A stretch of 32,000 nt of DNA from Methanopyrus kandleri AV19. GTDB taxonomy: Archaea > JAADCQ01 > Methanopyri > Methanopyrales > Methanopyraceae. The position numbers and the translations under genes are program-made. How positions within the stretch are numbered: position 1 is the first letter of the stretch; each line of letters starts with the position of its first letter. Below the pieces are notes generated by a model. The model saw nothing but the letters and a program-made list of their open reading frames with translations, was not told where the DNA came from and did not search any database. Of the stretch, positions 17,056 through 31,194 are shown piece after piece. The stretch lies in NCBI RefSeq assembly GCF_000007185.1, contig NC_003551.1:1200001-1232000 (forward strand). Reading direction: 5' to 3'.

Positions 17056-17713
17056 ACCGCTCTTCGAACACGACCTCTTCCACGGCGTCGTCGTACTCTA
17101 TCATCAGCTTCGCGAACCTCTGCTTCGCCCGGGCCCACGCCGGATTGGCGGCGTCGTCGCCTTCCACCCTGACGCGCAGCGTGTTCCCGTCCAGCTCCAG
17201 CTCCGCGTCGACGGATGGCACCATCGTCTCCAGCAGGCCCTCCGCCCGCTCCACCGTGTCCTCCAGTACGTCCACGACTTCCACCTCGTACACCAGCGCT
17301 TTACCCGCCAGCGGGTGGTTGAAGTCGACCCTCACCCGTCCACCGTCGACGCTGAGCACGCGACCGCGCCGGCCGTCGGGACTTACGACGGTATCCCCGG
17401 GCTTCACGCTCCCCCTGAACTCGGACTCACGGTACGTCCGGACCAGCGATGGGTCACGCTCCCCGAAGGCCTTCTCCGGGGGCACCTCGACCTCCAACTC
17501 GTCCCCTGGTTCCGCGCCCACCAGTGCCTCCTCAACCGGTTCCCATACCATTCCGGCTCCGACCACGACCACCACCGGGCCGGACTCGACGTTCAGATCG
17601 TGCTCTTCCGCGACCTCCTTCCGTGTGGTGTCGATTACCTCGTCGGTGTCCTTCACGCGTCCCGTGTAGTGGATCTTCACGAAGTCACCCTTCTCAACGG
17701 CCACGACGATCAA
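17045..17713 (-). CDS. FKBP-type peptidyl-prolyl cis-trans isomerase, long SlyD-like archaeal form with IF insert
   Basis: 222 aa. [12 protein letters not shown]...[22 protein letters not shown] 17713 overlaps the sufBD stop (TTGA). GTG at 17704 has better SD spacing (GAGGGG plus 9 nt) and may be the true start. Confidence 0.88.
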
Positions 17714-18621
17714 CCCCTCAGCATCGCGTTCACGAGTAGTTCGACGGCTTCTTCCTCCGAGAGACCTCGGGACATCAGGGTCTCGACCTCCTTCTTCTCC
17801 ACGGTACCCAGGGCGGCCTCGTGCGTCAACCGGGCGCCTGGGTGGACCACCCGCAGCTTGGGAACGCTGACGACCTTCCCACCTCCTTTAATGATCTCCG
17901 AGCACTCTACGTGACCGCGGGCGCCGTCCGCCTCCCCTGAGATCTCACCGACCAGCTCGACGAACGCGCCGTCGATCGCCGCCGCCTTGAAGTCCAGGAG
18001 GGTCCGCGCGTCCTCCCCGGTCAACCTGACGCTCTCCACTGCCCGGACGCGATCCTCCCCGACGGCCCTCAGCCTCGCCACTCCCTCCATGGTGGCCCGC
18101 TCCTCGACGCGGGCGCCCATCTCCCACTCCAGCTCGCCGACCCGACCCTCCGTGAGCCTGAACTCGGTCACGAAGGACGCCTCGGGCTTCACGGACACGT
18201 CGTACTTGGCCTTCAGCCGTACGCCTCCCTCCCCGTGGTAGTGCACGTCCGTAACCTTCACGTCCGCGCCCTCACCGATCTCGAACTCGGCTTCCATCTC
18301 GTGCACGACGTCGCGCGCTCTCGGGAACGAACAGTGGGACATCAGCTGTATCTTCGCCTCTGGCTCCACGATCAGCCTCGTCACGATCCGCTGGACTCCC
18401 TCCGGCCATGGAACCCCCACGCACATGTGGATGGGTTCGTCGAACTCGTACCCCTCCTTCACCACGAGCTCGGCGACGACGGTGTCGTCTTCCTCCTCGG
18501 CGTTGAGCTCGAGGCCCTCCGCCCCCTGCACGTTCACGACCTTGTTCTCGATGATCACGATCCGCGGCGTGTCCGGACCCGCGTGATAACCCGTAGGCTT
18601 GAACACCTCCTCGGGGCTCAC
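17710..18621 (-). CDS. SufB/SufD-family Fe-S cluster assembly protein (short archaeal form)
   Basis: Beta-helix-like repeats and the C-terminal VSVPKLRVVHPGARLTHEAALGTVEKKEVETLMSRGLSEEEAVELLVNAML, typical of SufBD. I start it at GTG 18621, which forms a GTGA overlap with the sufC stop. The ORF-track start at 18660 would overlap sufC by 43 nt. Confidence 0.85.
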   Translation of the reverse strand: MSPEEVFKPTGYHAGPDTPRIVIIENKVVNVQGAEGLELNAEEEDDTVVAELVVKEGYEFDEPIHMCVGVPWPEGVQRIVTRLIVEPEAKIQLMSHCSFPRARDVVHEMEAEFEIGEGADVKVTDVHYHGEGGVRLKAKYDVSVKPEASFVTEFRLTEGRVGELEWEMGARVEERATMEGVARLRAVGEDRVRAVESVRLTGEDARTLLDFKAAAIDGAFVELVGEISGEADGARGHVECSEIIKGGGKVVSVPKLRVVHPGARLTHEAALGTVEKKEVETLMSRGLSEEEAVELLVNAMLRG

Positions 18622-19331
18622 TCCGCCCCGCACACCAGGCCACCCCCGCACATCAGGCACTTGAGCACCACGTCCTTCGGGTCCCCTTCATCGACGATCT
18701 TACCGTCCATCATCAGGTAGGCCCTGTCACCGACCTGCTCCGCCAGGTCGCGGTTGTGCGTGATCAGCAGCACGGCGGAGCCTTCCTCCCTCATGGTCTC
18801 GATGACCTTCGCCAGATCCTCCATCGACGACATGTCCAGTCCCGCGTCCGGCTCGTCCAAGATCACCAGGTCCGGTCTCATCGCCATCACAGCGGCCAGT
18901 TCGACGCGCTTCCGCTCGCCTCCGCTCAGGTTCTCACCGCACTCGCGGTCCCAGTACTCCTCCGGGTCGAGACCGACGATCCGAAGGCACCGTCGCGCCC
19001 AGTCCTCATCGTCGGTGCAGACGGACAGGTACTCGCCCACGGTCAGGCCCTCGAACCTCGCGGGCTCCTGCCAGGACATTGTCAGTCCCATCCTCGCCCG
19101 CTCGTACATGGGGAGGTCGGTGATATCCCGACCCTTGAACCGGACCTCTCCCTCGACGACCTCGTATCCCGAGCACCCCACGATGGTCTTCGCCAGCGTG
19201 CTCTTCCCCGACCCATTGGGACCGATCAGGTCGACGATCTCGCCCTCGTCGACGGTCAGGGAGGCACCTCGAACGATCTCCGTTCCGTCCTCGGATTCCA
19301 CCCGCAGGTCTTTAACCTCGAGCAGAGCCAA
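18618..19331 (-). CDS. sufC: Fe-S cluster assembly ATPase SufC (ABC type)
   Basis: 237 aa. Walker A GPNGSGKST, signature LSGGERKRVELA, Walker B LVILDEPDAGLD, H-loop ITH. Unusual Cys-rich tail KCLMCGGGLVCGAE. Confidence 0.92.
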   Translation of the reverse strand: MALLEVKDLRVESEDGTEIVRGASLTVDEGEIVDLIGPNGSGKSTLAKTIVGCSGYEVVEGEVRFKGRDITDLPMYERARMGLTMSWQEPARFEGLTVGEYLSVCTDDEDWARRCLRIVGLDPEEYWDRECGENLSGGERKRVELAAVMAMRPDLVILDEPDAGLDMSSMEDLAKVIETMREEGSAVLLITHNRDLAEQVGDRAYLMMDGKIVDEGDPKDVVLKCLMCGGGLVCGAE

Positions 19332-24387: not shown

Positions 24388-25167
24388 CTAAAACGATGCC
24401 TCGGACCGGAGCTCCTCGACGATCTCCCGCGCGTGGGATCGGAGCGCCCGGTACAGCGCCCGCGCGTCCCTCCGTAGCGCGGCGTCCAGCACGTCCTCCG
24501 ACTCCGGGATCACCACGTCGAGGTCGTCGCTCGATCCGTCCGCCCGGTTCAGGACGGTGACGGTCGGGAGTCCGAACCTTTCGACCAGGGTCCTGGCACG
24601 CTCGAAGTCGTGACGGGCCGCGGGGCTCGGGGCGGTCACCAGCACCGCGGCGTCGGCGCGGGAGAGGGCCGCGATCACGGGACACCCCAGCCCCGCCGGA
24701 CAGTCGATCACGCACGGACGCTCGGGAACCATCCGGTGGATCACGTGCGCGAGCTCGGGTACCCAGGGCTCGGATCTCGGATGGATCACCTCGAGGTTCA
24801 GGTCCGGGTTACGCGACCTGACGATCTCACCTAGGACCTCCGGCTCGAACTCGATCGCGTCCTCGGGGCAGGCGATCGCGCAGATCCCGCACCCGTCGCA
24901 GGCCGTGGGGTCCTCGACGGCGTCCCACGGGCAGACCTCCGAGCACCTCCCGCACTCGACGCAATCGTCGGTCTTGACCGCGTAGCGGGCCCGGATCTCC
25001 TCGAGCACCTCCTCGACCTCCAGCTCCAGGTACGCGGGTACGTCGGGCTCGGTCACGTCGGCATCCACCAGCGGCACCCCTAGCTCCGCCGCCAGGGCGA
25101 TCGAGAGCATCGTCTTCCCCACGCCGCCCTTCCCTCCCAGGACGGCGACCTTGAGCTCCGGATCCAA
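24388..25167 (-). CDS. MinD/ParA-superfamily P-loop ATPase with inserted 2x[4Fe-4S] ferredoxin domain (paralogue 2)
   Basis: 259 aa. Deviant Walker A LGGKGGVGKT. Insert CVECGRCSEVCP and CDGCGICAIACP. TTG start after GCGGGGGTAT SD. Confidence 0.88.
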   Translation of the reverse strand: MDPELKVAVLGGKGGVGKTMLSIALAAELGVPLVDADVTEPDVPAYLELEVEEVLEEIRARYAVKTDDCVECGRCSEVCPWDAVEDPTACDGCGICAIACPEDAIEFEPEVLGEIVRSRNPDLNLEVIHPRSEPWVPELAHVIHRMVPERPCVIDCPAGLGCPVIAALSRADAAVLVTAPSPAARHDFERARTLVERFGLPTVTVLNRADGSSDDLDVVIPESEDVLDAALRRDARALYRALRSHAREIVEELRSEASF

Positions 25168-25181
25168 CGCGATACCCCCGC

Positions 25182-25970
25182 CTACACGACCTCCTCTAGG
25201 CAGCGCTCTACCGCCTCCCTGAAGACCTCCGATCGGGGTGGGTCGTCTACGGTAGGGGCCTCGACGACCGGATCCCGGACCTCCTCCTCGATCCTCCGCC
25301 TCCAGGAATCCGAGAGGTCGGACCTGTTGATCAGGATGACCACCTCGATCCCGGCGCGGTCGGCGACGCGCATCAGGCGCCTCAGATCGTGGTAAGCCGC
25401 CGGGGTCGGCTGCGTCACGGCGATCGCGGCGTCCGCGGCCTTGAGAACGTCGTACACGTCCTTCCCGGCGCCGGCCGGCGTGTCGAGGATCAGGTCCCTT
25501 TCGTCGTCCGCACCCTCCAGGAGCGCGTGAACGAGGTGTCGGGACCGCCGGTCACCCACGTCGAGCGATCCCGACGTCAGCGTCGCCCCGGTCTCGGACA
25601 CCCGGTACCTCCGTACCTCACCGATCCGAACGCGGTCGTACGCCAGGGCGCCGTTGGGGCAGCTCTCGATGCACAACCCGCAGCCGTGGCACAGGTCGGG
25701 ATCCAGGTCCCACGAGCGCCCGACCACGAGGGCGCCCGGCGCGCAGACCCGCGCGCACGTCCCGCAGAGATCGCACGCGTCTTCGTCCTCAAGCTTCGGA
25801 CACGGGATGTACACGTCGGACCGCTCGACCTCTTCGCAGTCGAGGTAAAGATGGAGGTTGGGGGTGGTGACGTCCAGGTCGAGGGCGTCCCAGCCCAGGA
25901 TCCGGTGGACGTGAACGGCGACCGTGGTCTTACCGACACCTCCTTTGCCGCCCGTGACGGCCAGCCACAT
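25182..25970 (-). CDS. MinD/ParA-superfamily P-loop ATPase with inserted 2x[4Fe-4S] ferredoxin domain (paralogue 1)
   Basis: 262 aa. TGGKGGVGKTT. Insert CDLCGTCARVCAP and CHGCGLCIESCP. ATG start after GAGGAGTGATC SD. Confidence 0.88.
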   Translation of the reverse strand: MWLAVTGGKGGVGKTTVAVHVHRILGWDALDLDVTTPNLHLYLDCEEVERSDVYIPCPKLEDEDACDLCGTCARVCAPGALVVGRSWDLDPDLCHGCGLCIESCPNGALAYDRVRIGEVRRYRVSETGATLTSGSLDVGDRRSRHLVHALLEGADDERDLILDTPAGAGKDVYDVLKAADAAIAVTQPTPAAYHDLRRLMRVADRAGIEVVILINRSDLSDSWRRRIEEEVRDPVVEAPTVDDPPRSEVFREAVERCLEEVV

Positions 25971-25977
25971 CCGGGGA

Positions 25978-26307
25978 TCACTCCTCGGGTAACTCGCCGC
26001 GGGCGGCCTTCAGGGCCGCCTCTTCCGGATCGGTCCCGGGCTCGGCGACGTAGGCCTTGATCCCCTGGGCTTTGAGACCTTGAAGCGCGTTGGGACCGTA
26101 ACGCGCGGCGACCGTGGCTTCGACGTTCAGTTCCGTGAGGACCGTGAGGATCTGCCTACCGGCCCCGCGCGGGAGGTTCGCGACGGGGTTACTCGTGGAC
26201 TCGACGAGCTCGACGTCGTCATCCTGCACCTCGTACACGCGGATCTCAGGAGCTCGGGCGAACCGGGAGGACACCCCGTCACCTTCCACCATCACGGCCA
26301 CGCGCAA
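25978..26307 (-). CDS. NifX/NifB-C-terminal-like (dinitrogenase FeMo-cofactor-binding fold) small protein
   Basis: 109 aa. MRVAVMVEGDGVSSRFARAPEIRVYEV...ATVAARYGPNALQGLKAQGIKAYV matches the NifX-like family pattern. The TTG start directly abuts the upstream TAA (TAATTG), with GAGGGGGT SD 10 nt upstream. Confidence 0.8.
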   Translation of the reverse strand: MRVAVMVEGDGVSSRFARAPEIRVYEVQDDDVELVESTSNPVANLPRGAGRQILTVLTELNVEATVAARYGPNALQGLKAQGIKAYVAEPGTDPEEAALKAARGELPEE

Positions 26308-26547
26308 TTACCTGGGACCCCCTCGTCCCGGACCACCGCGACCTCCGCGGCCGGGACCGCCGCGACCCATACCGCGTCCGAGACCGGCGTAGCTTCCCCA
26401 GGTACCCGGCCCGGGGTTCAGCCGGTGGATGAACACGGCTGGGGCTCCACAGTTCGGACAGCTCGAGGGTTTGGGGGCGCCGTACGGTACCTCGATGATC
26501 TCGCCGCACCGGGAGCACCGGAAGACCTTCACGTCGCGTCGGATCAA
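26308..26547 (-). CDS. Zinc-ribbon protein with C-terminal RGG/GPGRGG low-complexity tail
   Basis: 79 aa. CSRC-x15-CPNC, then GLGRGMGRGGPGRGGRGGPGRGGPR. TTG start preceded by a perfect GAGGGGGTGAT SD with a 5-nt spacer, 6 nt after the ferredoxin stop. Confidence 0.7.
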   Translation of the reverse strand: MIRRDVKVFRCSRCGEIIEVPYGAPKPSSCPNCGAPAVFIHRLNPGPGTWGSYAGLGRGMGRGGPGRGGRGGPGRGGPR

Positions 26548-26553
26548 ACCCGA

Positions 26554-26736
26554 TCACCCCCTCTTGGGCTCCATCCGGAGAGCACCCGTGGGACACACCC
26601 GGGCGCACGATCCGCAGGCGCGACACTTGGAGGCGTCTACCTCGACGTACCCGACGGAGACGAGGAGCGCACCGGTGGGACAGGCTCGCATGCACTCACC
26701 GCATCCCTCGCACTCGGAGGCGTCGTGCACGAACAC
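26554..26736 (-). CDS. 2x[4Fe-4S] ferredoxin (about 60 aa)
   Basis: CEGCGECMRACP and CRACGSCARVCP. The 159-aa ORF-track form runs through the upstream gene as R/G junk. The first in-frame start after that gene's stop is GTG 26736 (or GTG 26730). No strong SD, so the start is approximate. Confidence 0.8.
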   Translation of the reverse strand: MFVHDASECEGCGECMRACPTGALLVSVGYVEVDASKCRACGSCARVCPTGALRMEPKRG

Positions 26737-26759
26737 CGCCTGAGGTGTCTCGACGCGGG

Positions 26760-27179
26760 TTATTCCTTCTCCTCCATCTCTCGCAGCCGCTTCTCTAGTT
26801 CCTCGAGCTTCTTCCGCAGCTCCTCCAGCTCTTCCGTCTTCCCTCCTTCCGGACCCTCCGACACGCTCTCCGCGAGCTTCTCTACGGCCTCGGCTAAGTC
26901 CTCCCCGAAGGTCTCGCGTATCGCTTTCAGTACCTCCTTCCGGGTCTCCTCGTCCGCTGTTGCGAGCCACCACCAACCACCGCCCCAACCGGGACCGCCG
27001 CGCCAACCTCCTCTCCACCAGCCACCGGGCCACGCCGGTGCCGGCGCGCCTTCTTCACCCAGTACCTGCCAGGCGTGCTTTATCTCTCCCGTTTCCGTGT
27101 CCTCGTAGAACGCGTGTGGACCTAGCCCGCACCTGCACGGGCCGATGTACCTATATCGCCGGCTCGCCATGCCCTTCAC
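26760..27179 (-). CDS. DUF5320-like protein: Cys-containing N-terminus, Trp/Gly-rich core, C-terminal coiled coil
   Basis: 139 aa. RYRYIGPCRCGLGPHAF, then WPGGWWRGGWRGGPGWGGGWWW (8 Trp in 22 residues), then EELEELRKKLEELEKRLREMEEKE. Start is GTG 27179 (AGGAGGA upstream) or ATG 27170 (GGGGGTGA upstream). The family call is tentative, from architecture only. Confidence 0.6.
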   Translation of the reverse strand: MKGMASRRYRYIGPCRCGLGPHAFYEDTETGEIKHAWQVLGEEGAPAPAWPGGWWRGGWRGGPGWGGGWWWLATADEETRKEVLKAIRETFGEDLAEAVEKLAESVSEGPEGGKTEELEELRKKLEELEKRLREMEEKE

Positions 27180-27183
27180 CCCC

Positions 27184-27219
27184 TTAGGTCCTCCTAACGC
27201 CGCGATTAGGGAAACCTAA
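27184..27219. promoter_or_regulatory. Two tandem 14-bp palindromes TTAGG-N4-CCTAA (27184-27197 and 27206-27219), centres 22 bp apart; putative operator pair
   Basis: Read directly: cccTTAGGtcctCCTAAcgccgcgaTTAGGgaaaCCTAActc. They lie between the shared TATA-like box (27224-27233) and the first gene of the minus-strand six-gene operon. Confidence 0.65.
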
Positions 27220-27223
27220 CTCG

Positions 27224-27233
27224 GTAATAAAGC
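27224..27233. promoter_or_regulatory. Shared AT-rich TATA-like element GTAATAAAGC in the 72-bp divergent intergenic region
   Basis: The only AT-rich block between the gene starts at 27179 (-) and 27252 (+). It is about 24 nt upstream of the CBS GTG (predicting a leaderless mRNA) and about 45-55 nt upstream of the minus-strand start. Confidence 0.5.
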
Positions 27234-27251
27234 TTTGGGGATGGGAAAGCC

Positions 27252-27620
27252 GTGCCCACGGTCCGGGACGCGATGACCGAGGACGTCGTGGTCGTGGGGC
27301 CGGACGAGCCCCTGGAGCGCGTGCTCCGGACGTTCGCGTCCGAGTCGATCCACGGGGTGCCCGTCGTCGAGGGTGGCCGGTTGATCGGGATCGTGACGTC
27401 GGTCGACGTCGTCCGCGCCCTGGCCTCGGGCGAGTGGAGGGAGCTGACCGCGGGCGATGTCACCCGGAAGGCCGTGACCGTGGACCCAGACGAGGATCTC
27501 GAGACCGCGCTGGACCTGATGGCGGCCGTCGGTGAGGACCGCGCGGTGGTGGTCGAGGACGGGGAGATCGTCGGCGTAGTCACCGTACTGGACGCCATCC
27601 GCGTGCTGTTAGGGGAGTGA
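27252..27620 (+). CDS. CBS-domain pair protein
   Basis: 122 aa. VRDAMTEDVVVVGPDEPLERVLRTFASESIHGVPVVEGGRLIGIVTSVDVV plus a second CBS repeat, VTRKAVTVDPDEDLETALDLMAAVGEDRAVVVEDGEIVGVVTVLD. Confidence 0.9.
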   Translation: MPTVRDAMTEDVVVVGPDEPLERVLRTFASESIHGVPVVEGGRLIGIVTSVDVVRALASGEWRELTAGDVTRKAVTVDPDEDLETALDLMAAVGEDRAVVVEDGEIVGVVTVLDAIRVLLGE

Positions 27621-27624
27621 GCCG

Positions 27625-28965
27625 TTGAAACGGTTGTTCTATCCCGAGGCCGTCGCCGTGGTCGGCGCCTCCCGAGACCCCTCGAAGGTAGGTCACGGGA
27701 TCTTCCGGAACCTGCTGCGCGACTTCGACGGACCGGTGTACCCCGTGAACCCCCACGCCGACGAGCTCCTGGGTCGACGCTGCTACCCGTCGCTCCTCGA
27801 GCTCCCCGAGCGGGTCGACCTGGCGGTGATCGCGGTCCCCGCCCGCGTGGTTCCCGAGGTGGTGCGCGAGGCCGGGGAGGCCGGCGTACCGTACTGCGTG
27901 GTGATCTCCGCGGGCTTCTCCGAGGCGGGCAACGAGGACCTCGAGCGGGAGCTGGTCAGGACCGCCCGGAAAGTCGGCGTCCGGCTGGTGGGTCCCAACT
28001 GCCTCGGGATCATCAACGCGAGGATCGGGCTCAACGCGTCCTTCGCGGCGGAGTCCCCTCCCCCGGGCAACATCGCGTTTGTGACGCAGAGCGGGGCCCT
28101 CGCGACATCGGTCATCGACTGGTTCTCCTCGGGAGACGTCGGGACGGTCGGCGTGGGGTTCAGCAAGTTCGTGAGCCTGGGCAACGCGGCCGACCTGGAC
28201 TTCCCCGACTTCCTCGAGTACCTGGCGGAGGACGACGATACCGACGTGGTCGTGCTGTACCTGGAGGGCGTCAAGGACGGGCCGCGGTTCCTGGACGCGC
28301 TGTCCGAGTGTGCCGGGCGTAAGCCGGTGATCGTGCTCAAGGGCGGCAGGACGGAGGCCGGGGCCGAGGCGGTCGGCACCCACACCGGTTCACTGGCGGG
28401 CTCGGGAGAGGTCTACGAGGGGCTCGTCGAGGGAGAGGGTGGTATCTTCGTGGGAGGGTTCGAGGAGGCGTTCGACGCGGCGAAGCTGCTGGCTAAGGCC
28501 GGTCCCCCGACGTCGGACCGCGTGCTGATCGTGACGAACGCCGGGGGCGGCGGGATCCTGGCGACGGACGCCCTGCACGAGCTGGGCTTCGAGCTCCCGG
28601 AGCCCGCGGGGGACCCCTCGGTGCTGCCACCGGAGGCGGCGACGGGTAACCCCGTCGACGTGCTGGGGGACGCGGACGCGGAGCGTTACCGGGTCGCGCT
28701 GGAGGAGTTCGCGGATCCCGATCGGTACGGGGCCGTGATGGTCATCCTCACGCCGCAGAGCGTGACGGAGCCCGTGAAGACGGCACGGGCGGTCGTGGAG
28801 TTCGTCGAGGAGTTCCCGGGACCGGTGATCGGGGTCTGGATGGGCCGTCACTCCGTGGCCCTGGGGATCAGGGTTCTAGAGGAGGGCGGGGTGCCGACGT
28901 TCCCCTCGCCCGAGCGCGCCGCGAGGGCGCTGTACCACGCGGCCAGGTGGGCGGAAGTATTATAA
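27625..28965 (+). CDS. ADP-forming acyl/acetyl-CoA synthetase alpha-type subunit (CoA-binding plus succinyl-CoA-ligase-like flavodoxin domains)
   Basis: 446 aa. PEAVAVVGASRDPSKVGHGIFRNLL, VGPNCLGIIN, FVTQSGAL and GTHTGSLAG (phospho-His loop). No ATP-grasp beta subunit adjacent. Confidence 0.85.
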   Translation: MKRLFYPEAVAVVGASRDPSKVGHGIFRNLLRDFDGPVYPVNPHADELLGRRCYPSLLELPERVDLAVIAVPARVVPEVVREAGEAGVPYCVVISAGFSEAGNEDLERELVRTARKVGVRLVGPNCLGIINARIGLNASFAAESPPPGNIAFVTQSGALATSVIDWFSSGDVGTVGVGFSKFVSLGNAADLDFPDFLEYLAEDDDTDVVVLYLEGVKDGPRFLDALSECAGRKPVIVLKGGRTEAGAEAVGTHTGSLAGSGEVYEGLVEGEGGIFVGGFEEAFDAAKLLAKAGPPTSDRVLIVTNAGGGGILATDALHELGFELPEPAGDPSVLPPEAATGNPVDVLGDADAERYRVALEEFADPDRYGAVMVILTPQSVTEPVKTARAVVEFVEEFPGPVIGVWMGRHSVALGIRVLEEGGVPTFPSPERAARALYHAARWAEVL

Positions 28966-28967
28966 TG
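28957..28967 (+). promoter_or_regulatory. TATA box GTATTATAATG upstream of feoA (overlaps the ACD-alpha stop codon)
   Basis: The strongest TATA-like sequence in the window, about 35-40 nt upstream of the feoA GTG (28998). Confidence 0.6.
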
Positions 28968-28982
28968 TTAGGCGCACCTAAC
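28967..28982. promoter_or_regulatory. Palindrome GTTAGG-cgca-CCTAAC immediately downstream of the feoA TATA box; putative repressor operator with the same motif as 27184-27219
   Basis: Read directly: tataatGTTAGGcgcaCCTAACaatt. Its position between TATA and the expected transcription start is the classical archaeal repressor site. Confidence 0.6.
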
Positions 28983-28997
28983 AATTGAGTACCGACG

Positions 28998-29237
28998 GTG
29001 GGTGGTGCCGTGAAGACACTGCTCGAGGTGCCAGAGGGGAGGACGGTCCGCGTCGTCGACGTGGCCGCCGGTAAGGGAGCGGCCGCCATGCTGTACGAGC
29101 TCGGGATCCGGCCCGGGGCACGCGTCGAGGTCGTGAAGTCCGGTCCGGGTCCCGTCATCGTGCGCGTCGGCGGCGCGAAGTACTCCCTGGGTCGCGGCCT
29201 CGCGGCCAAGGTGATCGTCGAGGAGGAACAGGGGTGA
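28998..29237 (+). CDS. feoA: Ferrous iron transport protein A (FeoA, SH3-like)
   Basis: 79 aa. LLEVPEGRTVRVVDVAAGKGAAAMLYELGIRPGARVEVVKSGPGPVIVRVGGAKYSLGRGLAAKVIV. An alternative GTG lies at 29010. Confidence 0.88.
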   Translation: MGGAVKTLLEVPEGRTVRVVDVAAGKGAAAMLYELGIRPGARVEVVKSGPGPVIVRVGGAKYSLGRGLAAKVIVEEEQG

Positions 29238-29241
29238 GGCG

Positions 29242-31194
29242 ATGAGGACGGTAGCGCTGGCGGGACCACCGAACGTGGGTAAGACCACCATAATGTCCCG
29301 GGTCTGCCGCGCGAACCTGGAGGTCGGGAACTGGCCCGGGGTCACCGTCGAGAGGAAGACCTGCACGTACGAGTTCCGGGGGGATAGGTACCGTCTCATC
29401 GACCTCCCGGGCACGTACAGCCTCACGGCTTTCTCCGAGGACCAGCGCGTCGCCCGCGACTACCTGCTCGGCCGGACCGACGGGAAGCCGGACGCCGTGG
29501 TCGTCGTCGGGGACGCGCTCAACGTGGCCGGGGCCGTGCGCGTGTTCCTCGAGATCGCGGAGCTCGGGTACCATCACGTCATCCTGGCCGTGAACATGCT
29601 TGACGAGGCGGAGCGCGCGGGCATCGGCATCGACCTGAAACGACTGGAGCGCGAGCTGGGAGTGCCCGTCGTCGGTATATCCGCGAAGCGGGGATACGGG
29701 ATCGAGCACCTCAAGCGCGCGATCGCGGACGTCGTGCAGGGAAGGGTCGAGCCGAACCCCAGGTCCCCCCGGTACCCTCGCGAGGTCGAGAGGGCCGTGA
29801 AGGAGCTCGCCCCGGAGGTCGGTGAAAGGCTCCCGGAGTACCCCCCGCGTTGGGCCGTCCTCAAGCTCCTCGAGGGGGACCCCGAACTCCTCCGGGAACT
29901 CGAAAAACGCGATCCCGAGCTTCTAAAACGGGTTAAAGAGGTCAAGAAACGTATCGCCGAGCGGACCTCCCACGACCCGGCCGTCCTGATCTCGCAGGCC
30001 CGGGACGAACTCGCCACGCGGATCGCCCGGAACTGCGTGACGGGTCGGCCTTCGCTCTCCCGTCAGGACCGGATCGACCGCGTCCTCACGCACCCGGTGT
30101 GGGGCACGCTCATCGCCCTGGGCGTGCTCGGGACGGTGTTCGCGTCGGCGTTCCTCCTGGGCGACCCGCTCTCCGAGCTCGTGGAGGGGGCGTTCGAACA
30201 CCTCGCCGGGTTCGCCCGAAGTCTGCCCGCGCCATGGTCCGACCTACTCGCCGAGGGCGTGATCCCCGGCGTGGGAACCGTGCTCGCCATGTACCCGTAC
30301 GTGTTCGTCATGCTACTACTCCTCACCGTGCTCGAGGATGCCGGCTACACGGCCCGCCTCGCCGCCTTAGCGTCCGGCCTGCTCGCCCGCTTCGGTCTCC
30401 ACGGCAAGACCGTGTTCCCCGCCGTCCTGTCCCTCTCCTGCAACGTACCCGCGATCACGGCGAGCCGGATCATCGAGGACGAACGGGCCCGCCTGCTGAC
30501 CGCGATCGTCGTGCCGCTGATCCCCTGCGGTGCCCGTCTCGAGGTGATCACGTTCCTCACGGCGAAGCTACCGGACCCCTGGCGCGTACCGGCCGCCGTT
30601 TCCATCTACGTCGTCGCCCTCTCGCTGTTCGTGGCCACGTCCTACATCCTACACCGCCTCCTCTTCGGCAAGCCGGAGCCCCACCGCGGGCACGTGATCG
30701 AGCTCCCACGCCTCCGTAAGCCGCACCTACGCACGGTGCTCACCGTCACCTGGCTGCGCTCGAACGAGTTCCTCCAGAAGGCCGGCACGATCATCCTGGC
30801 GGCCTCGGTCCTGCTCTGGGTCGCCACCCGATACCCGGAGCCGCTGGGCACCGGCGGGAGCGCGATCGAGCTCGTCGGTAAGGCCCTCGAGCCGGTGACG
30901 GTGGCCCTCCTGGGGCTGGACTGGAAGGGGGCCGTGGCGCTCCTCAACGGGATCGTCGCGAAGGAGATCGTCATCTCCACCCTCGCCATGCTGCACGCGC
31001 ACCTCACGCCCGAGAACGCCTACGTGCTCACCCTGGTGAGCGCGCTGTACATCCCGTGTGCCGCCACGATAGGTGCGGTCTACTCGGAGACCGGTTCCAT
31101 GAGGTACGCCGCACTCTCCGTCGCGGCGAACCTGTCCCTCGCGACCCTGGTCGGCGCGGCCGTGCACCACGCGCTCGTGGCACTCGGCGGCTGA
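29242..31194 (+). CDS. feoB: Ferrous iron transporter FeoB (N-terminal G domain plus polytopic membrane domain)
   Basis: 650 aa. G1 GPPNVGKTT, DLPGTYSL, NMLD. Multiple TM segments in the C-terminal two-thirds. Confidence 0.94.
   Translation: MRTVALAGPPNVGKTTIMSRVCRANLEVGNWPGVTVERKTCTYEFRGDRYRLIDLPGTYSLTAFSEDQRVARDYLLGRTDGKPDAVVVVGDALNVAGAVRVFLEIAELGYHHVILAVNMLDEAERAGIGIDLKRLERELGVPVVGISAKRGYGIEHLKRAIADVVQGRVEPNPRSPRYPREVERAVKELAPEVGERLPEYPPRWAVLKLLEGDPELLRELEKRDPELLKRVKEVKKRIAERTSHDPAVLISQARDELATRIARNCVTGRPSLSRQDRIDRVLTHPVWGTLIALGVLGTVFASAFLLGDPLSELVEGAFEHLAGFARSLPAPWSDLLAEGVIPGVGTVLAMYPYVFVMLLLLTVLEDAGYTARLAALASGLLARFGLHGKTVFPAVLSLSCNVPAITASRIIEDERARLLTAIVVPLIPCGARLEVITFLTAKLPDPWRVPAAVSIYVVALSLFVATSYILHRLLFGKPEPHRGHVIELPRLRKPHLRTVLTVTWLRSNEFLQKAGTIILAASVLLWVATRYPEPLGTGGSAIELVGKALEPVTVALLGLDWKGAVALLNGIVAKEIVISTLAMLHAHLTPENAYVLTLVSALYIPCAATIGAVYSETGSMRYAALSVAANLSLATLVGAAVHHALVALGG

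What the first reader, a model, noticed from the sequence alone, without database searches (positions are those of the whole stretch)
27184..27219. Tandem TTAGG-N4-CCTAA palindromes in the divergent promoter of the Fe-S/NifX-like operon
Two perfect 14-bp palindromes, TTAGGtcctCCTAA and TTAGGgaaaCCTAA, have centres 22 bp apart, about two helical turns. They lie between the only TATA-like box of the 72-bp intergenic region and the first gene of the minus-strand operon. Site 1 overlaps that gene's SD/5' leader. A third copy sits behind the feoA TATA box. I found no other full copy in the 32 kb; isolated CCTAA pentamers elsewhere lack the partner half-site. A 10-nt specified AT-rich pattern should occur far less than once by chance in GC-rich DNA of this length. 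The half-sites equal the outer pentamers of the DtxR/IdeR iron-box consensus (TTAGGTTAGCCTAACCTAA as I recall it), but here the spacer is 4 bp rather than 9 bp. The cognate factor may therefore be DtxR-like or something different. No obvious regulator gene lies in the window.
Basis: partly seen in the sequence, partly recalled or inferred. Interest (0 to 1): 0.75.

Follow-up and report, generated by a model that had tools for sequence, protein, structure and literature searches.

The report
DtxR-type iron operators in Methanopyrus
The three TTAGG-N4-CCTAA palindromes in this Methanopyrus kandleri window are most likely binding sites for an iron-sensing DtxR/IdeR-family repressor. That repressor would switch off the ferrous-iron transporter feoAB and a neighbouring Fe-S/NifX-like operon when iron is plentiful. 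This is a well-known kind of switch, newly documented in this lineage.

Summary
Exact TTAGG-N4-CCTAA palindromes lie at 27184-27197, 27206-27219 and 28968-28981: 3 found against 0.02 expected, and no further site appears at one mismatch. The window is Methanopyrus kandleri.

The motif is letter for letter the 14-bp single-dimer consensus proposed for IdeR/DtxR repressors (PMC8464063). It also matches the ChIP-seq motif of Haloferax volcanii TroR (PMC10783522). The "4 bp versus 9 bp spacer" puzzle therefore disappears: the classical 19-bp iron box is two such 14-bp sites overlapping by 5 bp.

Nine non-redundant Methanopyrus-lineage loci (171 kb) carry 20 sites with at most one mismatch, against 0.8 expected. 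All 20 sit 1-10 bp downstream of a TATA-like box. They precede only three gene sets: feoA, the DUF5320-like/NifX-like/MinD-like operon, and its Fer4 gene. Half-sites are nearly invariant, while 18 of the 20 spacers differ.

In an independent sample of 80 metagenome loci chosen only for a tandem pair of the motif, 15 encode a DtxR homologue, 11 of them right beside the boxes.

The cognate repressor gene is not in the window and could not be located, and metal-dependent binding is untested.

Verdict: a real operator, a new member of a known kind, of modest interest.

The parts
27184..27197 (.). Operator site 1 (TTAGGTCCTCCTAA). On the operon strand it reads TTAGGAGGACCTAA. It is the TATA-distal site, predicted to lie about +4 to +17 in the leader of the minus-strand operon.
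   Evidence: Exact match. Conserved at the same place in Methanopyrus sp. SNP6 (L035), L047 and L168.
27206..27219 (.). Operator site 2 (TTAGGGAAACCTAA). It is the TATA-proximal site, 4 bp from the TATA-like box and predicted at about -18 to -5. An 8-bp gap separates it from site 1, giving 22 bp centre to centre.
   Evidence: Exact match. The same 8-bp gap occurs in L035 (one mismatch), L047 and L168.
27224..27232 (.). TATA-like element GTAATAAAG (TTTATTAC on the minus strand, preceded by CCAAAGC). It is the only AT-rich box in the divergent intergenic region.
   Evidence: Read directly from the sequence. The transcription start is not mapped.
28958..28965 (+). TATA-like box TATTATAA of the feoA promoter. 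It overlaps the stop codon of the upstream CoA-binding gene.
   Evidence: Sequence. A similar TTATATAA lies upstream of feoA in L005 and L006.
28968..28981 (.). Operator site 3 (TTAGGCGCACCTAA). It lies between the feoA TATA box and the predicted transcription start.
   Evidence: Exact match. Conserved upstream of feoA in L035 (one mismatch), L047, L168, L005 and L006.
26760..27170 (-). First operon gene: a 136-aa DUF5320-related protein. It has the invariant motif YRYIGPCRCGxGPxAFY, a W/G-rich middle and a coiled-coil C-terminus.
   Evidence: It is 100% identical to a protein named 'hypothetical protein [Methanopyrus kandleri]'. It has no Pfam or NCBIfam hit of its own, but the distant homologue P0008 carries PF17253.
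26554..26754 (-). 2x[4Fe-4S] ferredoxin gene (66 aa).
   Evidence: Pfam Fer4, E = 3.5e-18; NCBIfam ferredoxin families.
26308..26547 (-). Zinc-ribbon protein (MJ0401/DUF7130-like) with a G/R-rich tail.
25978..26307 (-). NifX/ORP-like protein (Nitro_FeMo-Co domain).
   Evidence: Pfam PF02579, E = 6e-19. Weak match to MrpORP.
25182..25970 (-). MinD/Mrp-like P-loop ATPase with an inserted 4Fe-4S ferredoxin domain (first of two).
24388..25167 (-). MinD/Mrp-like P-loop ATPase with an inserted 4Fe-4S ferredoxin domain (second of two).
27252..27620 (+). Divergent CBS-pair protein gene. It may be controlled by the same sites, because site 2 sits where the BRE of a plus-strand promoter using the same TATA would lie.
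   Evidence: Pfam CBS. A one-mismatch box abuts the TATA of the CBS/Fer4 intergenic region in L005 and L006. Control of this gene is an inference only.
27625..28965 (+). CoA-binding protein resembling the alpha subunit of ADP-forming acetyl-CoA synthetase. It always lies between CBS and feoA in this lineage.
29010..29237 (+). feoA (75 aa; an alternative GTG start is at 28998).
   Evidence: Pfam FeoA; called as 75 aa.
29242..31194 (+). feoB, the ferrous-iron transporter.
   Evidence: Pfam FeoB_N, Gate and FeoB_C.

Best explanation
The three palindromes are single-dimer operators for a DtxR/IdeR-family metal-dependent repressor of Methanopyrus kandleri. The gene for that repressor lies elsewhere in the genome.

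Proposed mechanism: when intracellular Fe2+ is sufficient, the metal-loaded homodimer binds each 14-bp site. One winged-helix monomer contacts each CCTAA pentamer, and the 4-bp spacer is not read. At feoA, one dimer sits between the TATA box and the transcription start. At the DUF5320-like/ferredoxin/Zn-ribbon/NifX-like/MinD-like operon, two dimers sit 22 bp apart, about two helical turns and so on roughly the same face of the DNA. One is between the TATA box and the start, and the other is just downstream of the start. Bound repressor blocks RNA polymerase recruitment. When iron is scarce the apo-protein leaves, and both the iron transporter and the Fe-S/ORP-like operon are transcribed.

Shown here: the sites exist, they are far beyond chance, they are conserved at orthologous promoters, they match a published DtxR-family consensus, and they co-occur with DtxR genes in an independent sample. 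Inferred: the identity of the binding protein, iron as the effector, the transcription start positions, and repression by steric exclusion.
For: (1) Statistics. The window has 3 exact sites against 0.02 expected. Across 171,457 bp of nine non-redundant Methanopyrus-lineage loci there are 16 exact sites (0.03 expected) and 20 with at most one mismatch (0.77 expected).

(2) Footprinting. All 20 sites lie upstream of feoA, the DUF5320-like gene or its Fer4 gene. This covers M. kandleri, Methanopyrus sp. SNP6, two Methanopyrus MAGs and five more distant MAG or metagenome loci (first-gene protein identity down to 48%; FeoB 61-62% in L005 and L006). It holds even where the operon has been split or moved. 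Half-sites are nearly invariant (T1 20/20, T2 20/20, A3 20/20, G4 20/20, G5 19/20), whereas 18 of the 20 spacers differ.

(3) Position. Every site lies 1-10 bp downstream of a TATA-like box and 13-40 bp upstream of the start codon.

(4) Identity with a known motif. PMC8464063 proposes TTAGGNNNNCCTAA as the IdeR/DtxR consensus and shows that one dimer binds such a site with KD about 78-102 nM. Hfx. volcanii TroR ChIP-seq gives TTTAGGC-NNN-CCTAAA. Tandem copies there lie near the TATA box of an iron-uptake operon, and either copy suffices for iron-dependent repression.

(5) Independent association. Of 80 metagenome loci (437.6 kb) selected only for a tandem pair of the motif, 15 encode a DtxR-family homologue. 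In 11 of these the gene starts within about 150 bp of the boxes. Four loci carry feoB and two carry feoA.

(6) Target logic. feoAB is the classic DtxR target in archaea and methanogens.

(7) An RNA-level explanation fails. The leader fold has z = -0.39, and there is no Rfam match.
Against: No DtxR-family gene was found in the window or in about 190 kb of Methanopyrus-lineage DNA available here. The rest of the genome could not be searched. M. kandleri is reported to have the smallest transcription-factor repertoire among surveyed archaea, 24 proteins (PMC8253408), so the presence of a DtxR homologue cannot be taken for granted. No transcription-start, binding or expression data exist for these promoters. 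The one-mismatch sites in L005 and L006 change the T at pentamer position 3 (CCGAA), which abolished IdeR binding in vitro when changed in all four pentamers, so those sites may be weak. sufC and sufBD in the same window carry no box, so this is not a general Fe-S regulon. Archaeal DtxR paralogues can sense Mn or Zn rather than Fe.
Confidence: 0.8

Rival explanations
1. The sites are DtxR-family operators, but the sensor responds to manganese or another divalent metal (an MntR/SirR/TroR-type paralogue) rather than to iron. Alternatively, it acts as an activator at one of the promoters.
For: DtxR-family paralogues in archaea have diverged in metal specificity, and TroR both represses and activates. 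FeoB can also carry some Mn(II) (PMC8351635).
Against: The box is the iron-type IdeR/TroR consensus. The conserved targets are feoAB and Fe-S proteins. All sites lie downstream of the TATA box, which is a repressor position.
Confidence: 0.1
2. A non-DtxR protein reads the palindrome. Candidates are another family among the few transcription factors of Methanopyrus, or the small DUF5320-like protein itself, whose gene always carries the box (autoregulation).
For: No DtxR gene could be located. M. kandleri has very few transcription factors. The DUF5320-like gene keeps the box even where it stands alone (L038 and L040).
Against: The sequence matches the DtxR/IdeR consensus exactly, and the motif co-occurs with DtxR genes elsewhere. 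The DUF5320-like protein has no recognisable DNA-binding domain. DUF5320 loci outside this lineage lack the box.
Confidence: 0.07
3. The palindromes are chance matches, by-products of the ribosome-binding site, or RNA hairpins in the leader, with no regulatory role.
For: Site 1 contains AGGAGG on the operon strand. Each palindrome can form a 5-bp hairpin.
Against: Shuffles give 0.02 expected against 3 observed. There are 20 conserved sites at orthologous promoters with freely varying spacers. The leader fold is no better than shuffled sequence, z = -0.39. Site 2 and the feoA site lie upstream of the predicted transcription starts.
Confidence: 0.02

Closest known systems
IdeR/DtxR iron box of Actinobacteria (19-bp TTAGGTTAGSCTAACCTAA) and its 14-bp single-dimer form TTAGGNNNNCCTAA (Saccharopolyspora erythraea IdeR, PMC8464063)
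   Same: The half-sites, their inverted orientation and the 4-bp spacer are identical. The spacer is unconstrained, as expected if each monomer reads one CCTAA pentamer. The promoter location and the iron-uptake target also match.
   Different: These are separate single-dimer sites, two of them 22 bp apart on roughly the same DNA face. The classical box instead has two dimers overlapping by 5 bp on opposite faces, and no site here extends to a 19-bp box. The promoters are archaeal TATA/TFB promoters, not sigma-70 promoters.
Haloferax volcanii TroR regulon (DtxR family; ChIP-seq motif TTTAGGC-NNN-CCTAAA; PMC10783522)
   Same: An archaeal DtxR-family protein with the same core and spacing. Sites are often in tandem near the TATA box of iron-uptake operons and give iron-dependent repression.
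   Different: The TroR tandem sites are about 30 bp apart, and the consensus has extra flanking T/A. Here the flanks are G/C (G at -1 in 19 of 20 sites). The targets are siderophore genes in Haloferax but feoAB and an ORP-like operon in Methanopyrus.
Archaeoglobus fulgidus MDR1 (DtxR family; Bell et al. 1999, as cited in PMC3074139 and PMC2995911)
   Same: Metal-dependent repressor. Several tandem operators lie downstream of the TATA box. It blocks RNA polymerase recruitment rather than TBP/TFB binding, which is the mechanistic model adopted here.
   Different: The MDR1 motif is reported as GTT-N8,9-AAC. The Methanopyrus sites read GTT-N10-AAC when the flanking G and C are included. MDR1 regulates its own operon, whereas no regulator gene lies next to the sites here.
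Predicted archaeal DtxR-family regulons controlling FeoAB (Leyn and Rodionov 2015, J Bacteriol 197:451). The paper could not be read here; it is known from citations and from my own memory of the abstract.
   Same: Palindromic DtxR-type motifs upstream of feoAB in many archaeal orders.
   Different: I could not check whether Methanopyrales were included. To my knowledge, membership of the DUF5320-like/NifX-like/MinD-like operon in such a regulon is not part of those reconstructions.
Orange-protein (ORP) gene clusters of anaerobes, for example Desulfovibrio (from my own knowledge; NCBIfam MrpORP)
   Same: The regulated operon has the same building blocks: a Nitro_FeMo-Co/ORP-like protein, MinD/Mrp-like ATPases with ferredoxin inserts, and a DUF5320-type small protein.
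   Different: As I recall, the Desulfovibrio clusters are controlled by sigma-54 and a dedicated activator. Here the control element is a DtxR-type box. The match to MrpORP is weak (E = 4e-6 to 8e-11, far below the family cut-off).

Membership tests
DtxR/IdeR-family operator, single-dimer 14-bp form | Two inverted CCTAA pentamers separated by 4 unconstrained bp (TTAGGNNNNCCTAA) | tested here: met
   There are 3 exact sites in the window, and 16 exact plus 4 one-mismatch sites in relatives. Eighteen of the 20 spacers differ. The consensus is stated in PMC8464063.
DtxR/IdeR-family operator, single-dimer 14-bp form | In each pentamer, T at position 3 and C at position 1 or 2, the bases required for IdeR binding in vitro | tested here: met
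   All 6 half-sites in the window meet this, as do 38 of 40 half-sites across the 20 sites. The two exceptions are CCGAA in the Fer4/CBS sites of L005 and L006.
DtxR/IdeR-family operator, single-dimer 14-bp form | Placement over the core promoter of the regulated gene | tested here: met
   Every site lies 1-10 bp downstream of a TATA-like box and upstream of the start codon. Transcription starts are predicted, not mapped.
DtxR/IdeR-family operator, single-dimer 14-bp form | Targets are metal-uptake or metal-homeostasis genes | tested here: met
   The targets are feoAB and an operon of Fe-S and ORP-like proteins. The feoA site is conserved in 6 genomes.
DtxR/IdeR-family operator, single-dimer 14-bp form | The motif co-occurs with DtxR-family genes (autoregulation or neighbourhood) in independent genomes | tested here: met
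   Of 80 metagenome loci chosen only for a tandem motif pair, 15 encode a DtxR homologue, 11 of them within about 150 bp of the boxes. From general knowledge of one to a few such genes per genome, fewer than 1 would be expected in 0.44 Mb.
DtxR/IdeR-family operator, single-dimer 14-bp form | A cognate DtxR-family protein (PF01325/PF02742) is encoded in the same genome | not testable with these tools
   None was found in the window or in about 190 kb of Methanopyrus-lineage DNA.
DtxR/IdeR-family operator, single-dimer 14-bp form | Metal-dependent protein binding and iron-responsive transcription | not testable with these tools
   This needs EMSA or footprinting and expression data.
Classical 19-bp iron box (two overlapping dimers) | Four CCTAA-type pentamers within 19 bp (TTAGGTTAGSCTAACCTAA) | tested here: not met
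   Spacers and 3' flanks show no TTAG/CTAA pattern, and no site extends to a second overlapping palindrome.
MDR1-type operator (A. fulgidus) | GTT-N8,9-AAC | tested here: not met
   With flanks the sites read GTTAGG-N4-CCTAAC, which is GTT-N10-AAC. The MDR1 motif is as quoted in PMC3074139.
Structured RNA element in the leader | A fold more stable than shuffled sequence, or a match to a known RNA family | tested here: not met
   z = -0.39. There is no Rfam match at E <= 1 in 26500-29500.

The most novel reading that the evidence does not exclude
Methanopyrus, which has one of the smallest transcription-factor sets known, may lack a conventional DtxR protein. The canonical iron box would then be read by something else, for example the cysteine-bearing DUF5320-like protein whose gene carries the box in every genome examined. 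A milder and more likely version is also possible: the box is DtxR-bound, and it reveals that the widespread but functionally obscure ORP-like cluster (DUF5320, NifX-like and MinD-like proteins) belongs to the iron-starvation response in this lineage.
Probability: 0.06. Interest if true: 0.7.

Novelty: new member of a known kind. Interest (0 to 1): 0.3.

Why it matters
The finding gives a concrete, testable piece of gene regulation for Methanopyrus kandleri, a hyperthermophilic methanogen with very few regulators and essentially no characterised operators. It shows that the 14-bp single-dimer IdeR/DtxR consensus, recently proposed from actinobacterial work, also describes sites in a deep-branching archaeon. 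It also links a conserved but poorly understood anaerobe gene cluster (DUF5320-like, ferredoxin, NifX/ORP-like and MinD/Mrp-like ATPases) to the same control as the ferrous-iron transporter. This suggests the cluster has a role when iron is scarce. The principle itself, a DtxR-type repressor controlling feoAB, is already well established.

Tried and rejected
(1) Regulator search. tblastn with IdeR and MntR, and later a DtxR profile built from 7 sequences, found nothing against the window and all Methanopyrus-lineage loci. I considered a database-wide protein search with a DtxR query but did not run it. The family is huge, so the Methanopyrus member would not surface among the top hits.

(2) Literature. 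The key comparative paper (Leyn and Rodionov 2015, PMC4285986), the P. furiosus DtxR paper (PMC3650548) and the M. kandleri genome paper (PMC123706) are not held. The supplements of PMC8253408 do not list transcription-factor families per genome.

(3) RNA explanations. The leader fold is not significant, there is no Rfam hit, and there is no bacterial-type promoter or terminator.

(4) Wider regulon. No box with up to two mismatches lies near sufC/sufBD or any other gene of the window.

(5) Generality of the link to the ORP-like operon. DUF5320 loci from an Asgard archaeon (L045) and a low-GC organism (L169) have no box. None of the 80 tandem-box metagenome loci carries ORP-like genes. The link is therefore specific to the Methanopyrus lineage.

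(6) The exact-sequence lookup with the 139-aa GTG-start version of the first gene found nothing. The 136-aa ATG version is the recorded protein.

Full report
**Observation.** The window holds exactly three copies of TTAGGNNNNCCTAA, at 27184-27197, 27206-27219 and 28968-28981. Dinucleotide shuffles predict 0.02 copies, and none of 100 shuffles reached three. Allowing one mismatch adds nothing. The only two-mismatch hit lies inside feoB. The first two sites are 22 bp apart centre to centre. They lie between the only AT-rich, TATA-like element of the divergent intergenic region (GTAATAAAG, 27224-27232) and the first gene of a minus-strand operon. The third site starts 2 bp after TATTATAA, in front of feoA. 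The minor corrections concern the start codon of the first operon gene, which is ATG 27170 by comparison with homologues, and the claimed overlap with the ribosome-binding site.

**Source and gene content.** The 136-aa product of the first operon gene is 100% identical to a protein named 'hypothetical protein [Methanopyrus kandleri]', carried on a 1,694,969-bp contig. The window is therefore M. kandleri or a near-identical strain.

The minus-strand operon encodes, in order:
- a DUF5320-related small protein with the invariant motif YRYIGPCRCGxGPxAFY;
- a 2x[4Fe-4S] ferredoxin;
- a zinc-ribbon protein;
- a NifX/ORP-like Nitro_FeMo-Co protein;
- two MinD/Mrp-like ATPases with ferredoxin inserts.

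The plus strand carries a CBS-pair protein, a CoA-binding protein resembling the alpha subunit of acetyl-CoA synthetase, and then feoA and feoB. Pfam scans of all other likely genes found ribosomal proteins, FttA, a proteasome subunit, ProRS, sufC/sufBD and others, but no transcription factor.

**Identity of the motif.** The structural work on IdeR resolves this (PMC8464063). Each monomer binds one CCTAA pentamer. [quoted passage not shown] IdeR also binds a lone 14-bp site as one dimer, with apparent KD of 78-102 nM. The authors explicitly propose TTAGGNNNNCCTAA as the redefined family consensus.

The archaeal DtxR-family protein TroR of Haloferax volcanii has the ChIP-seq motif TTTAGGC-NNN-CCTAAA, which has the same core and spacing. 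It is frequently in tandem near the TATA box of iron-uptake operons, and either copy is sufficient for iron-dependent repression (PMC10783522). The Methanopyrus sites do not extend to a 19-bp box, so they are single-dimer sites.

**Phylogenetic footprinting.** I collected loci from relatives through FeoB and through homologues of the 136-aa protein.

Three further Methanopyrus genomes (SNP6, L047 and L168; first-gene product 73-89% identical) keep all three sites. The 8-bp gap between the tandem pair is also kept. The spacers differ, and two sites in SNP6 carry one mismatch.

In two more distant MAGs (L005 and L006; FeoB 61-62% identical) the arrangement has changed. The feoA site is exact. 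The ferredoxin gene stays divergent from CBS with a one-mismatch box abutting the TATA. In L006 the rest of the operon lies about 8 kb away with its own exact box.

In still more distant genomes (L036, L038 and L040; first-gene product 74% and 48% identical) the only hit in each 20-kb locus is an exact box directly in front of the DUF5320-like gene. This holds even where that gene stands alone.

Pooled over 171,457 bp there are 16 exact sites (0.03 expected) and 20 sites with at most one mismatch (0.77 expected). All 20 lie in these three promoter classes. The ten specified positions are almost invariant, and 18 of the 20 spacers differ. This is the signature of a protein-binding site that reads the pentamers only. 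A G precedes the box in 19 of 20 sites.

**Promoter geometry and mechanism.** In every case a TATA-like element lies 1-10 bp upstream of the box, and the start codon lies 13-40 bp downstream of it. If the usual archaeal distance of about 26 bp from the TATA centre to the transcription start applies, the positions are as follows. This is an inference, because the starts are not mapped.
- The feoA box covers about -20 to -7.
- Operon site 2 covers about -18 to -5.
- Operon site 1 covers about +4 to +17.

This is the arrangement described for the DtxR-family repressor MDR1 of Archaeoglobus fulgidus and for LrpA. Those proteins bind just downstream of the TATA box and exclude RNA polymerase while TBP and TFB can still bind (PMC2995911). 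The 22-bp spacing puts two dimers on nearly the same face of the helix, which would allow cooperative or redundant repression. Site 2 also lies where a BRE would sit for a plus-strand promoter using the same TATA element. The CBS and CoA-binding genes may therefore be co-controlled, but that is speculation.

**Independent test of the motif-protein link.** I scanned public metagenome contigs for two copies of the motif 0-30 bp apart. Of the 80 loci fetched (437.6 kb, of very diverse GC content), 15 encode a DtxR-family homologue. In 11 of these the gene starts within about 150 bp of the boxes, which is the classic autoregulatory layout. Four loci carry feoB and two carry feoA nearby. None carries ORP-like genes. 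DUF5320 loci from an Asgard archaeon and a low-GC organism lack the box. The link between the box and the ORP-like operon is therefore specific to the Methanopyrus lineage.

**What is missing.** No DtxR-family gene occurs in the window or in about 190 kb of Methanopyrus-lineage DNA in hand, and I could not reach the rest of the genome. M. kandleri is reported to have only 24 predicted transcription factors, the fewest among the archaea surveyed (PMC8253408). The existence of the cognate protein is therefore likely but unproven. DtxR and FeoAB are co-regulated in Methanococcus voltae (PMC8516115), and DtxR homologues repress iron uptake in Thermococcus and Halobacterium (PMC3074139). This makes iron the most plausible effector, though a Mn-sensing paralogue is not excluded. 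sufC and sufBD in the same window have no box.

**Rejected alternatives.** Chance is excluded by the statistics and by conservation. An RNA hairpin or riboswitch reading fails: the leader folds no better than shuffled sequence (z = -0.39), and no Rfam family matches. The AGGAGG inside site 1 is too far from the supported ATG to be the ribosome-binding site, and the equivalent spacer differs in relatives.

**Verdict.** It is a new member of a known kind: canonical single-dimer DtxR/IdeR-type operators in Methanopyrales. They control feoAB as expected. The only moderately new element is that they also control a DUF5320-like/NifX-like/MinD-like operon. Interest is modest at 0.3. Confidence that these are DtxR-family operators is about 0.8.

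Noticed in passing
window 26554-26754 (-): A 66-aa 2x[4Fe-4S] ferredoxin gene lies between the DUF5320-like gene and the zinc-ribbon gene. It was not called in the gene calls for the metagenome contigs identical to the window, although it is called in SNP6 and L168.
   Followed up: partly
L006 7716-7964 and 17096-18127; L005 1773-1786: In the more distant MAGs the operon is split. The ferredoxin gene stays divergent from CBS with a one-mismatch box (TTCGGCGCGCCTAA). In L006 the DUF5320-like, Zn-ribbon, NifX-like and MinD-like genes sit about 8 kb away with their own exact box.
   Followed up: yes
window 26760-27170 (-); alignment A1: The DUF5320-related protein has an invariant N-terminal motif YRYIGPCRCGxGPxAFY..G.I.H, a Trp/Gly-rich low-complexity middle (WPGGWWRGGWRGGPGWGGGWWW) and a charged coiled-coil tail. 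Its function is unknown. In L038 and L040 it stands alone next to a V4R-domain gene and still carries the box.
   Followed up: partly
window 27224-27252: A single AT-rich element, part of the palindrome AAAGCTTT, is the only TATA candidate for both divergent transcription units. The CBS start codon GTG 27252 lies about 25 bp from it. This suggests a leaderless CBS mRNA and a shared, bidirectionally used TATA box.
   Followed up: no
L048-L127 (metagenome loci): Tandem TTAGG-N4-CCTAA pairs are common in very diverse organisms. Directly abutting pairs (gap 0) are the most frequent, 14 of 84. High-GC contigs that look haloarchaeal have gaps of 20-22 bp with a TATA-like AT stretch between the boxes. 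The 8-bp gap of Methanopyrus appeared only once.
   Followed up: partly
all 20 sites: A G precedes the box in 19 of 20 sites and a C follows it in 12 of 20. The extended site therefore reads GTT-N10-AAC, reminiscent of the GTT-N8,9-AAC reported for A. fulgidus MDR1.
   Followed up: no
window 17710-19331 (-): The sufBD and sufC genes (the minimal SUF system) lie 8 kb from the operators and have no box, even with two mismatches allowed. The Fe-S assembly genes therefore seem to fall outside this regulon.
   Followed up: yes
L169 3093-4074: In a low-GC organism the DUF5320-like gene directly follows a DUF134 gene (a putative DNA-binding protein) and has no DtxR-type box. Control of these clusters may therefore differ outside the Methanopyrus lineage.
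   Followed up: no
L038 5298-9071; L040 5754-9056: The elongation factor 2 genes of these methanogen MAGs contain inteins (Intein_splicing and LAGLIDADG domains).
   Followed up: no
window 27252-28965 (+): CBS-pair and CoA-binding (ACS-alpha-like) genes always lie immediately upstream of feoAB in this lineage (window, L035, L047, L168, L005, L006). This hints at a functional or regulatory link with iron uptake.
   Followed up: no
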